Assembly: GCF_045037415.1 (NCBI RefSeq)
Contig: NZ_CP173438.1
Length of the DNA stretch: 64,000 nucleotides
From: Escherichia coli
GTDB taxonomy: Bacteria; Pseudomonadota; Gammaproteobacteria; Enterobacterales; Enterobacteriaceae
Reading direction: 5' to 3' (one strand)
Positions 50,511 to 50,602 of this stretch are shown here, one piece after another. The notes beneath the pieces were generated by a model. That model did not search any database and was not told where the DNA came from. It worked only from the letters and a program-made list of their open reading frames with translations. The number at the start of each line of letters is the position of its first letter. Position 1 is the stretch's first letter. The translations under genes were made by a program, and so were the position numbers.

Positions 50511-50538
50511 AATAAATGGTATTTAAAATGCAAATTAT
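50511..50538 (+). promoter_or_regulatory. candidate NsrR operator in the yeaR-yoaG promoter (AATAAATGGTATTTAAAATGCAAATTAT)
   Basis: AT-rich imperfect inverted repeat resembling the NsrR consensus; TACCCTG NarL-heptamer-like motif just downstream. Confidence 0.4.
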
Positions 50539-50602
50539 CAGGCGTACCCTGAAACGGCTGGAATAAACCGTTTCCAGCGCATTCACCGAAGGAGGGAAAA
50601 GG

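What the first reader, a model, noticed from the sequence alone, without database searches (positions are those of the whole stretch)
50511..50578. yeaR-yoaG promoter: NsrR-like palindrome plus an inverted repeat near the RBS
Upstream of yeaR there is an AT-rich imperfect inverted repeat (AATAAATGGTATTTAAAATGCAAATTAT) resembling NsrR operators, then a 7-bp inverted repeat (GCTGGAA-N8-TTCCAGC, 50557..50578) about 25 nt before the start codon. The latter could be a second operator or a leader hairpin.
Basis: partly seen in the sequence, partly recalled or inferred. Interest (0 to 1): 0.25.

Follow-up and report, generated by a model that had tools for sequence, protein, structure and literature searches.

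The report
Known yeaR promoter, 5′-end mRNA hairpin
The AT-rich stretch is the already well-studied nitrate/nitric-oxide control region of the E. coli yeaR-yoaG operon, and the small inverted repeat after it most likely forms an ordinary hairpin at the very first bases of the mRNA, which probably slows its decay.

Summary

**AT-rich stretch (50511-50538).** This is not one palindrome. It is two overlapping sites that are already characterised:
- the NarL 7-2-7 activator site TAACCAATAAATGGTA (50506-50521, centred -43.5; used for a 2024 cryo-EM structure);
- the NsrR 11-1-11 operator AAATGGTATTTAAAATGCAAATT (50514-50536, centred -32, covering the -35 hexamer).

A leave-one-out NsrR matrix ranks the operator first of 63,978 window positions (20.7 bits, next best 10.9). 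The geometry is invariant in 28 Escherichia, Salmonella and Citrobacter orthologues.

**Inverted repeat GCTGGAA-N8-TTCCAGC (50557-50578).** It starts at the base that the published numbering makes +1. It is therefore a hairpin at the 5′ terminus of the mRNA (-9.9 kcal/mol), not an element at the RBS.
- The perfect repeat is a minority allele. K-12 and most E. coli carry T at 50574, which gives a G·U pair.
- All 27 orthologues analysed have a hairpin starting at predicted +1 to +5, with different stem sequences between genera.
- Every stem substitution seen is G-C↔G-U or A-U↔G-U.
- No compensatory double changes occur within alignable clades.

The repeat is not an NsrR or NarL site, a terminator, or an Rfam family. 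The most likely role is protection of the 5′ end from RppH and RNase E. This role is inferred, not shown. Overall the finding is ordinary and of low interest.

The parts
50506..50521 (.). NarL 7-2-7 activator site TAACCAATAAATGGTA, centred at -43.5
   Evidence: The sequence and the -43.5 position are stated in PMC10853779 (cryo-EM NarL activation complex on the yeaR promoter). It is identical at -51..-36 in 23 of 28 orthologues; two more differ by one base and three Citrobacter carry a different 7-2-7-like 16-mer. The consensus match is weak, with 4 mismatches.
50514..50536 (.). NsrR 11-1-11 operator AAATGGTATTTAAAATGCAAATT, centre 50525 = -32. It overlaps the NarL site by 8 bp and covers the -35 hexamer.
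   Evidence: The exact 23-mer is listed for yeaR in PMC5320621 Table 4. A leave-one-out matrix gives 20.7 bits, rank 1 of 63,978. The best matrix hit is centred at -32 in all 28 orthologues.
50522..50527 (+). -35 hexamer TTTAAA (my assignment)
   Evidence: Inferred from a 17-bp spacing to the -10 hexamer and from the published numbering. Conserved as TTTWAA in 26 of 28 orthologues; two Salmonella subspecies have TTTGAA and TTTAAG.
50545..50550 (+). -10 hexamer TACCCT (my assignment)
   Evidence: Positions -12..-7 relative to the inferred +1. TAMYCT is conserved at constant spacing in all 28 orthologues. The simple sigma-70 scan does not call this promoter, as expected for an activator-dependent one.
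50557..50557 (+). Inferred transcription start (+1, G); MG1655 coordinate 1,879,994 (minus strand)
   Evidence: Derived from the published centre of the NarL site, -43.5 lying between 50513 and 50514. The de novo RNA in the cryo-EM scaffold begins with G. No independent start-site data were obtained here.
50557..50578 (+). 5′-terminal stem-loop of yeaR-yoaG mRNA: arms 50557-50563 (GCUGGAA) and 50572-50578 (UUCCAGC), loop 50564-50571
   Evidence: Present as repeat I1. Free energy is -9.9 kcal/mol, z = -5.4. All 7 pairs are kept in 10 of 10 Escherichia sequences, with one G-C/G-U alternation. An equivalent hairpin sits at predicted +1 to +5 in all 27 Escherichia, Salmonella and Citrobacter orthologues.
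50590..50595 (+). Shine-Dalgarno core AGGAGG, 7 nt before the ATG. It lies outside the hairpin.
   Evidence: Read directly from the sequence.
50603..50962 (+). yeaR coding sequence (DUF1971/TehB-like, 119 aa)
   Evidence: ORF list and RefSeq annotation of identical genomes.
50966..51148 (+). yoaG coding sequence (DUF1869, 60 aa), second gene of the operon
   Evidence: ORF list and RefSeq annotation.

Best explanation
The region is the control region and leader of the E. coli yeaR-yoaG operon.

(1) Known from the literature and confirmed here by sequence. Phospho-NarL binds the 7-2-7 site at 50506-50521 (-43.5) and recruits RNA polymerase. The nitric-oxide-sensitive repressor NsrR binds the 11-1-11 operator at 50514-50536 (-32). 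That operator overlaps both the NarL site and the -35 hexamer, so NsrR and the activation machinery compete for the same DNA.

(2) Inferred here. Transcription starts at G50557, so the repeat GCUGGAA-N8-UUCCAGC forms a stem-loop from the very first nucleotide of the mRNA (+1 to +22), leaving no unpaired 5′ nucleotides. RppH and RNase E both need at least two unpaired 5′ nucleotides. The hairpin should therefore hinder 5′-end-dependent decay and lengthen the life of an mRNA made only during nitrate or NO exposure. It does not occlude the ribosome-binding site.
For: Promoter part:
- The NarL site sequence and its position come from PMC10853779.
- The NsrR 23-mer is listed in PMC5320621.
- The NsrR matrix ranks it first of 63,978 positions, with none as good in shuffles.
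- NarL site, NsrR centre at -32 and the -10 hexamer keep fixed spacing in 28 orthologues.

Hairpin part:
- It starts at the base that the published numbering makes +1.
- Free energy is -9.9 kcal/mol, z = -5.4.
- Every one of 27 Escherichia, Salmonella and Citrobacter leaders has a hairpin starting at predicted +1 to +5 and ending at +22 to +27, built from different stem sequences: GCUGGAA/UUYCAGC; CAGCGRU/AUCGYUG; CAGCGR/UCGCUG; GCAGCG/CGCUGC; GCGGUU/RAYCGC.
- All seven stem substitutions seen within clades are G-C↔G-U or A-U↔G-U, and none breaks a pair.
- In Escherichia 1 of 14 stem columns varies, against 14 of 32 loop and leader columns (Fisher p = 0.018).
- The sense-strand hairpin is more stable than the antisense one in 17 of 22 orthologues, because the mismatches are G·U on the sense strand. 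This points to RNA rather than a DNA palindrome.
- In sampled E. coli variants the only stem polymorphism is C/T at 50574.
- The requirement of RppH and RNase E for at least two unpaired 5′ nucleotides, and the full resistance of a substrate with none, are stated in PMC8833179.
Against: - The start site is taken from published numbering, not from data I could inspect. The primary papers (Lin 2007, Squire 2009) are not in the held library.
- There is no compensatory double change within any alignable clade. Formal covariation is nil, and RNAalifold on the mixed-clade MAFFT alignment predicts no consensus structure.
- The Escherichia versus Salmonella/Citrobacter stems cannot be aligned pair for pair. 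The between-genus difference is therefore one replacement event, not several independent ones.
- A 7-bp repeat is not rare: about 1-5% by chance for one leader.
- Each orthologue's hairpin is only p = 0.001-0.11 against shuffles.
- Start sites in Salmonella and Citrobacter are predictions. There the hairpin leaves 2-4 unpaired nucleotides, which would protect less well.
- Distant orthologues are mixed: Silvania, Lelliottia and L047 show no 5′ hairpin at the predicted start.
- The E. coli 5′ arm resembles a motif conserved in distant orthologues that do not pair it. Part of its conservation may therefore have another cause.
- No half-life data exist for this mRNA.
Confidence: 0.5

Rival explanations
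1. The inverted repeat has no function. It is a short palindrome that arose by chance in a leader and persists because the compared species are closely related.
For: - Perfect 7-bp repeats occur at 1.9 per kb in this window.
- The perfect form is a minority allele.
- No compensatory double changes occur within clades.
- Within the C. freundii complex, the leader downstream of the hairpin is as conserved as the stem.
- Some distant orthologues lack a 5′ hairpin.
- An equally perfect overlapping repeat, GAAACGG/CCGTTTC, is clearly not conserved. This shows that such repeats do arise here by chance.
Against: - A hairpin is found at the same place in all 27 leaders of three genera, although the stem sequences differ.
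- Seven of seven stem substitutions keep pairing.
- The stem is significantly less variable than the loop and the rest of the leader in Escherichia.
- The mismatches are strand-asymmetric, G·U on the sense strand only.
Confidence: 0.3
2. The hairpin is a functional RNA element with a different role. Candidates are control of translation (for example as part of a larger fold that hides the start codon or Shine-Dalgarno), an effect on promoter escape or early pausing, or binding of an RNA-binding protein.
For: - RNAalifold on Escherichia also predicts a weak helix CAUUC (50580-50584) with GGAUG (50601-50605). It would enclose the Shine-Dalgarno and pair the AUG, and it shows only one-sided changes.
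- In the window and K-12, a small hairpin pairs UUCACC with GGGAA next to the Shine-Dalgarno.
- In Citrobacter the 5′ arm CAGCGRU can alternatively pair with a conserved downstream GUCGACUG.
Against: - The main hairpin ends 11 nt before the Shine-Dalgarno core and does not touch it.
- The small hairpin next to the Shine-Dalgarno is lost in other Escherichia through the C→T change at 50585.
- The whole leader plus early coding region is not unusually structured (z = -1.2).
- No U-tract follows the stem, so it is not an attenuator.
Confidence: 0.1
3. The repeat acts in DNA as an operator at +1 to +22. It would be a second NsrR or NarL site, or a site for another dimeric regulator that blocks initiation.
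For: - It has dyad symmetry and lies across the start site, where repressors commonly bind.
- PMC10853779 notes that other factors may take part in yeaR regulation in vivo.
Against: - The best NsrR half-site score in 50545-50600 is 4.6 bits, against 10.6 and 10.4 for the real half-sites. This is about the 99.3rd percentile of the window, so roughly 470 positions score as well.
- No NarL heptamer with one mismatch or fewer lies in the repeat.
- Most E. coli and all other Escherichia have a G·T mismatch in the DNA repeat.
- The arm sequence is completely different in Salmonella and Citrobacter while the symmetry persists. A sequence-specific protein site would not behave this way.
Confidence: 0.07

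Closest known systems
NsrR (Rrf2-family) 11-1-11 operators of the E. coli NO regulon (ytfE, hmp, hcp, ygbA)
   Same: It is a 23-bp AT-rich inverted repeat of the type AAnATGCATTT-N-AAATGCATnTT. It scores within the range of the 17 training sites (20.7 bits against 13.9-31.5). It overlaps core promoter elements. The literature already lists it as the yeaR NsrR site.
   Different: Its left half doubles as the right half of a NarL activator site, so activator and repressor share DNA. It was not recovered in the CFT073 NsrR ChIP-seq, which the authors regard as a false negative.
NarL 7-2-7 activator sites (for example ogt, napF)
   Same: Two inverted heptamers separated by 2 bp, just upstream of the -35. 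NarL alone suffices for activation, independently of FNR.
   Different: It is a single site at -43.5, whereas ogt needs tandem sites. The match to TACYYMT-NN-AKRRGTA is poor, with 4 mismatches. The activation geometry was described as an unusual class II mode without a sigma-4 contact.
5′-terminal stem-loops that stabilise E. coli mRNAs (ompA 5′ UTR hairpin 1; papA 5′ stem-loop; Emory, Bouvet and Belasco 1992, cited)
   Same: It is a stable hairpin beginning at or within a few nucleotides of the 5′ triphosphate, upstream of and separate from the ribosome-binding site. By the published substrate rules it should block RppH and the 5′ sensor of RNase E.
   Different: No half-life or 5′-phosphorylation data exist for yeaR mRNA. 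The stem is short (7 bp, including a G·U pair in most strains). There is no sequence similarity to the ompA or papA leaders, and 'family' here means a functional class, not homology.
Intrinsic terminators and leader attenuators
   Same: It is a hairpin in a 5′ leader.
   Different: No U-tract follows the stem; the next bases are GCGCAUUCACC. The terminator scan finds nothing, and there is no alternative anti-terminator pairing within the transcript.

Membership tests
NsrR 11-1-11 operator | Significant match to the 23-bp NsrR position weight matrix | tested here: met
   20.7 bits with yeaR left out of the matrix; rank 1 of 63,978 positions; 0 as good in 50 shuffled windows.
NsrR 11-1-11 operator | Position overlapping core promoter elements so that binding can repress | tested here: met
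   The centre at 50525 is -32 and covers the -35 hexamer, given the published numbering. The geometry depends on the inferred +1.
NsrR 11-1-11 operator | Conservation in orthologous promoters | tested here: met
   The best matrix hit is centred at -32 in all 28 orthologues, scoring 12-22 bits. Strong sites (19-30 bits) are also present in Silvania, Yokenella, Lelliottia, Pantoea, Enterobacter ENT03, L047 and L048.
NsrR 11-1-11 operator | NsrR-dependent repression or binding in vivo | not testable with these tools
   The literature reports that yeaR is NsrR-regulated (PMC5320621, citing Lin 2007 and Filenko 2007). The CFT073 ChIP-seq did not detect it.
NarL 7-2-7 site | Two inverted TACYYMT heptamers with a 2-bp spacer | tested here: inconclusive
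   The spacing and symmetry are right, but there are 4 mismatches to the consensus. In the window 35 positions match better and 175 equally well.
NarL 7-2-7 site | NarL binding and NarL-dependent activation | not testable with these tools
   The published cryo-EM complex, EMSA, in vitro transcription and lacZ fusions all use this promoter (PMC10853779).
NarL 7-2-7 site | Conservation at fixed distance from the promoter | tested here: met
   The same 16-mer occupies -51..-36 in 23 of 28 orthologues, and two more differ by one base. Three Citrobacter have TGCCCCTTTTGGTGTA, another 7-2-7-like sequence, at the same place.
5′-terminal mRNA-stabilising stem-loop | The hairpin begins within about 0-2 (at most 4) nt of the transcript 5′ end | tested here: met
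   The stem starts at 50557, the +1 derived from the published -43.5 centre. It starts at predicted +1 to +5 in the orthologues. The start site itself was not verified with data here.
5′-terminal mRNA-stabilising stem-loop | Thermodynamically stable, and the dominant fold of the leader | tested here: met
   Free energy is -9.9 kcal/mol with 95% of the ensemble, z = -5.4. The hairpin is retained in the minimum-energy fold and centroid of the 84-nt leader plus early coding region. The K-12 allele gives -7.0 kcal/mol.
5′-terminal mRNA-stabilising stem-loop | Evolutionary support for pairing | tested here: inconclusive
   In favour: pairing is kept in all 27 leaders, with wobble-only substitutions and a strand asymmetry. 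Against: there are zero double-sided compensatory changes and no excess over controls within clades, and no consensus structure on the mixed alignment.
5′-terminal mRNA-stabilising stem-loop | Removing the hairpin shortens mRNA half-life, and the effect depends on RppH or the RNase E 5′ sensor | not testable with these tools
   This needs rifampicin-chase and PABLO experiments.
Intrinsic terminator / attenuator | GC-rich stem followed by a U-tract | tested here: not met
   No terminator-like site was found in 50380-51300. The stem is followed by GCGCATTCACC.
Any curated RNA family (Rfam 15) | Covariance-model match | tested here: not met
   The only hit in 50380-51300 at E ≤ 10 is a 9-bit chance match to tmRNA elsewhere.
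Second NsrR operator or half-site at the inverted repeat | Match to the 11-bp NsrR half-site matrix | tested here: not met
   The best score in 50545-50600 is 4.6 bits, against 10.6 and 10.4 for the true halves.

The most novel reading that the evidence does not exclude
The 5′-terminal hairpin is under selection in Escherichia, Salmonella and Citrobacter, and has been rebuilt from different sequences in different genera. It would make yeaR-yoaG mRNA refractory to RppH, including Np4-cap removal, which also needs an unpaired 5′ nucleotide, and to 5′-end-dependent RNase E attack. Transcripts made during a brief nitrate or NO pulse would then outlast the signal. This would add a post-transcriptional layer to a promoter so far treated as a purely transcriptional NarL/NsrR/Fis switch, and would be relevant to its use as a nitrate biosensor part.
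Probability: 0.35. Interest if true: 0.35.

Novelty: new member of a known kind. Interest (0 to 1): 0.17.

Why it matters
The promoter part adds nothing new: it is one of the best-characterised NarL promoters. The hairpin, if it does stabilise the mRNA, would be one more example of a known mechanism. Its modest practical relevance is that the yeaR promoter is widely used as a nitrate or inflammation biosensor part, so including or omitting the first 22 transcribed bases could change output. The comparison also gives a small, clean example of a hairpin kept at a fixed place while its sequence turns over between genera.

Tried and rejected
1. **Rfam.** A scan of 50380-51300 at E ≤ 10 found nothing relevant.

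2. **Promoter and terminator consensus scan.** It found no site. The promoter is activator-dependent and its hexamers are poor.

3. **The overlapping perfect repeat GAAACGG/CCGTTTC (50551-57 / 50568-74, repeat I3).** Rejected for two reasons:
   - Its left arm lies upstream of +1.
   - Its right arm falls in the hairpin loop, which varies among Escherichia.

4. **The 14-nt extended arms TGAA...TTCA (repeat I1).** Rejected for two reasons:
   - TGAA lies upstream of +1.
   - TTCA becomes TTTA in other Escherichia.

5. **The small hairpin next to the Shine-Dalgarno.** It is not conserved.

6. **A second NsrR or NarL site in the repeat.** Rejected.

7. **Formal covariation.**
   - RNAalifold on the mixed Salmonella/Citrobacter alignment gave no structure, because MAFFT offsets the 3′ arms by one column.
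   - One call was wasted on wrong coordinates.
   - Counts within clades show no double-sided changes.
   - I did not build a covariance model. A 7-bp hairpin carries too little information to find diverged copies, and the resulting alignment would be fitted to the structure.

8. **Independent start-site data.**
   - The stored Cappable-seq supplement is truncated before 1.88 Mb.
   - The Conway 2014 supplements are not held.
   - Lin 2007 and Squire 2009 are not held.

9. **Literature searches.**
   - 'yeaR' collides with 'year'.
   - A search for the leader sequence itself found only the NsrR 23-mer in PMC5320621.
   - No held paper prints or discusses the hairpin, but this does not prove that it is undescribed.

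10. **Klebsiella loci (L032, L045), Leminorella (L044), L049 and the Buttiauxella second gene copy (L042).** None has an NsrR site upstream of the gene fetched, so they were not informative.

11. **A sigma-54 reading of CTGGAA...TTCC.** By eye, the GG-N10-GC spacing is not met.

Full report
**Identity of the locus.** The 821 bases around the finding are 100% identical to many E. coli chromosomes and are present in 5,419 of 5,426 complete E. coli genomes. They are annotated leuE | yeaR | yoaG. In the window, leuE is 49792-50430, yeaR 50603-50962 and yoaG 50966-51148, all on the + strand. The finding lies in the 172-bp leuE-yeaR spacer.

**Check of the observation.** The repeat tool reports GCTGGAA (50557-50563) and TTCCAGC (50572-50578) as part of repeat I1. 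It also reports a second perfect 7-bp repeat that overlaps it, GAAACGG (50551-57) and CCGTTTC (50568-74).

**The AT-rich part is two overlapping, already characterised sites.**
- PMC10853779 determined a 3.2 Å cryo-EM structure of the NarL activation complex on this promoter. It gives the NarL 7-2-7 site as TAACCAATAAATGGTA, centred at -43.5. That sequence is window 50506-50521, which puts +1 at G50557. The scaffold RNA also starts with G.
- PMC5320621 Table 4 lists AAATGGTATTTAAAATGCAAATT as the yeaR NsrR 11-1-11 site. That is window 50514-50536, centred at -32.
- By title, Squire et al. 2009 add Fis-dependent repression at this promoter. From my memory of the abstract, the Fis site overlaps the NarL site; I could not read the paper.

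- An NsrR matrix built from 17 other published sites scores the operator 20.7 bits. This is rank 1 of 63,978 window positions (next best 10.9), and none as good appeared in 50 shuffled windows.
- The NarL site is a poor consensus match, with 4 mismatches. In the window 35 positions match better. It is recognisable only through experiment and conservation.
- In 28 Escherichia, Salmonella and Citrobacter orthologues, three features keep exactly the same spacing:
  - the 16-mer at -51..-36;
  - an NsrR hit centred at -32;
  - a TAMYCT -10 hexamer.
- My hexamer assignments (-35 TTTAAA at 50522-27, -10 TACCCT at 50545-50, 17-bp spacer) are inferences from this geometry.

**The inverted repeat lies at the 5′ end of the transcript.**
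- With +1 at 50557, the repeat occupies +1 to +22 of the mRNA.
- As RNA it folds at -9.9 kcal/mol (95% of the ensemble; z = -5.4), and it is kept in folds of the whole leader.
- It ends 11 nt before the AGGAGG core, so 'near the RBS' is not accurate.
- No U-tract follows the stem and no terminator is called. No Rfam family matches.

**Whether the repeat exceeds chance.**
- Alone, barely. The window has 121 perfect 7-bp repeats with 3-12 nt loops, which gives about a 1% chance of one starting within 5 nt of a given start site.
- The perfect repeat is also a strain allele. K-12 has T at 50574, which gives a G·U pair.
- Of 5,259 E. coli genomes with the leader, 3,316 carry the exact K-12 66-nt allele and 427 the window allele.
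- Eight further genomes were sampled. One matched the window exactly. The other seven carry T at 50574 and differ elsewhere only in the loop (50570) or downstream (50585, 50599). One of these also has a tandem duplication of the Shine-Dalgarno region.

**Comparative evidence for the hairpin.**
- I fetched 27 loci by YeaR similarity (26 of them usable), plus K-12 and S. enterica.
- In all 27 leaders analysed, a hairpin starts at predicted +1 to +5 and ends at +22 to +27.
- The stems differ between lineages:

| Lineage | 5′ arm / 3′ arm |
|---|---|
| Escherichia | GCUGGAA / UUYCAGC |
| Salmonella | CAGCGRU / AUCGYUG |
| C. freundii complex | CAGCGR / UCGCUG |
| Citrobacter R56, Awk4 | GCAGCG / CGCUGC |
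| C. amalonaticus group | GCGGUU / RAYCGC |

- Loops vary from 4 to 15 nt.
- Each hairpin is individually modest against shuffles, with p between 0.001 and 0.11.
- Within clades, all seven stem substitutions are G-C↔G-U or A-U↔G-U. A neutral transition would keep pairing about half the time, so (1/2)^7 is about 0.008. This is a rough estimate and not a phylogenetic model.
- In ten Escherichia sequences, 1 of 14 stem columns varies, against 4 of 8 loop columns and 10 of 24 other leader columns (Fisher p = 0.018).
- The sense hairpin is more stable than the antisense in 17 of 22 orthologues. This fits an RNA on the coding strand and not a DNA palindrome.

**Limits of that evidence.**
- No pair shows a change on both sides within any alignable clade, and the counting tool shows no excess over its controls.
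- RNAalifold finds no consensus on the mixed alignment.
- The Escherichia stem cannot be aligned pair for pair with the others, so the between-genus difference is a single replacement event.
- Start sites outside E. coli are predictions.
- Among more distant orthologues that keep the NsrR site, results at the predicted start are mixed:
  - L048 and Yokenella have a hairpin close to it.
  - Pantoea (GUUUAGU/ACUAAAC) and Enterobacter ENT03 (CGUUAAGU/ACUUAACG) have perfect hairpins that straddle it.
  - Silvania, Lelliottia and L047 have none.
- Several of these distant leaders lack a -10 at the E. coli position. They share a CGTGSTGWAAT-like motif where E. coli has the start of its leader. Their start sites are therefore uncertain, and part of the conservation of the E. 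coli 5′ arm may have another cause.

**Mechanism.**
- Shown in the literature: NarL activates from -43.5, and NsrR represses.
- Shown by sequence: the two sites and the -35 overlap.
- Inferred: the transcript begins with a stem that leaves no unpaired 5′ nucleotide.
- PMC8833179 states that RppH and RNase E both need at least two unpaired 5′ nucleotides, and that a substrate with none is fully resistant.
- The best-supported role is therefore protection from 5′-end-dependent decay, as for the ompA and papA 5′ stem-loops (references).
- I put this at about 0.5. The rivals are no function (0.3), another RNA role (0.1) and a DNA operator (0.07). The operator reading is weakened by three observations:
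  - the failed NsrR and NarL scans;
  - the G·T mismatch in most strains;
  - the replacement of the arm sequence between genera.

**Verdict.** The promoter is already known, and the hairpin is at most a new member of a known class. Interest is low.

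Noticed in passing
window 49250-49791: Between rnd and leuE this strain has only about 540 bp, carrying fragments of a tartrate dehydrogenase gene (dmlA) and a LysR regulator gene (dmlR). K-12 has dmlR next to leuE at this position. From my memory of the K-12 map, dmlA and yeaVWX follow it, so several kb appear to be deleted. RefSeq annotates the fragments as pseudogenes in an identical strain.
   Followed up: partly
window 50438-50457: A perfect 8-bp GC-rich hairpin, AGCCCGCG-ttgc-CGCGGGCT, lies 8 nt after the leuE stop codon. No T-run follows it, so the terminator scan does not call it. The K-12 loop differs by one base. It may be an atypical leuE terminator or an mRNA 3′ stabiliser.
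   Followed up: no
window 50551-50557 / 50568-50574: A second perfect 7-bp repeat, GAAACGG/CCGTTTC, interleaves with the reported one. The C at 50574 completes both repeats at once. Its right arm lies in the variable loop and is broken in other Escherichia, and its left arm lies upstream of +1. I judge it to be chance.
   Followed up: yes
window 50580-50584 with 50601-50605: RNAalifold on ten Escherichia leaders predicts a weak helix, CAUUC with GGAUG, that would pair the start codon and enclose the Shine-Dalgarno. It shows only one-sided U-G/U-A and C-G/U-G changes. It is not the minimum-energy fold of most single sequences.
   Followed up: partly
L036 (E. coli strain 98207, NZ_CP173539.1), equivalent to window ~50579-50602: This strain has a tandem duplication of about 27 nt covering the leader segment GCGCATTCCCCGAAGGAGG. 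It gives two Shine-Dalgarno copies upstream of yeaR, and the 5′ hairpin is intact.
   Followed up: no
window 56879-56894: TACCGCTTCATGGGTA matches the NarL 7-2-7 consensus with one mismatch. It is the best match in the window and far better than the proven yeaR site. It lies inside the yeaK coding sequence, so it is probably chance.
   Followed up: partly
L006, L014, L023 (C. sedlakii / C. amalonaticus group), -51..-36: These three Citrobacter replace the NarL 16-mer TAACCAATAAATGGTA with TGCCCCTTTTGGTGTA at the same position. The new sequence is a different, arguably more consensus-like 7-2-7 sequence. The NsrR operator and the -10 hexamer are unchanged.
   Followed up: no
L047, L048, L030, L043, L026, L031 (distant yeaR orthologues): These loci share TTGAAA/TTGACA directly after the NsrR operator and a CGTGSTGWAAT-like motif 35-46 nt after the operator centre. 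Several lack a -10 at the E. coli position. The promoter or start site may therefore differ from E. coli, and the motif is unexplained.
   Followed up: partly
Alignment A7 (C. freundii complex and C. amalonaticus group leaders): The 5′ arm CAGCGRU can alternatively pair with a conserved downstream GUCGACUG just before the Shine-Dalgarno, with one bulged A. RNAalifold prefers this long-range helix on the combined alignment, although single-sequence folds prefer the proximal hairpin.
   Followed up: no
L031, L042, L044; L032, L041, L045: Operon content varies. Lelliottia, Buttiauxella and Leminorella carry two tandem TehB-like (yeaR) genes before yoaG. Klebsiella, Enterobacter ENT03 and Buttiauxella have a DUF1869 protein of 111-118 aa instead of 60 aa. 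The Klebsiella and Leminorella loci show no NsrR site upstream of the gene fetched.
   Followed up: no
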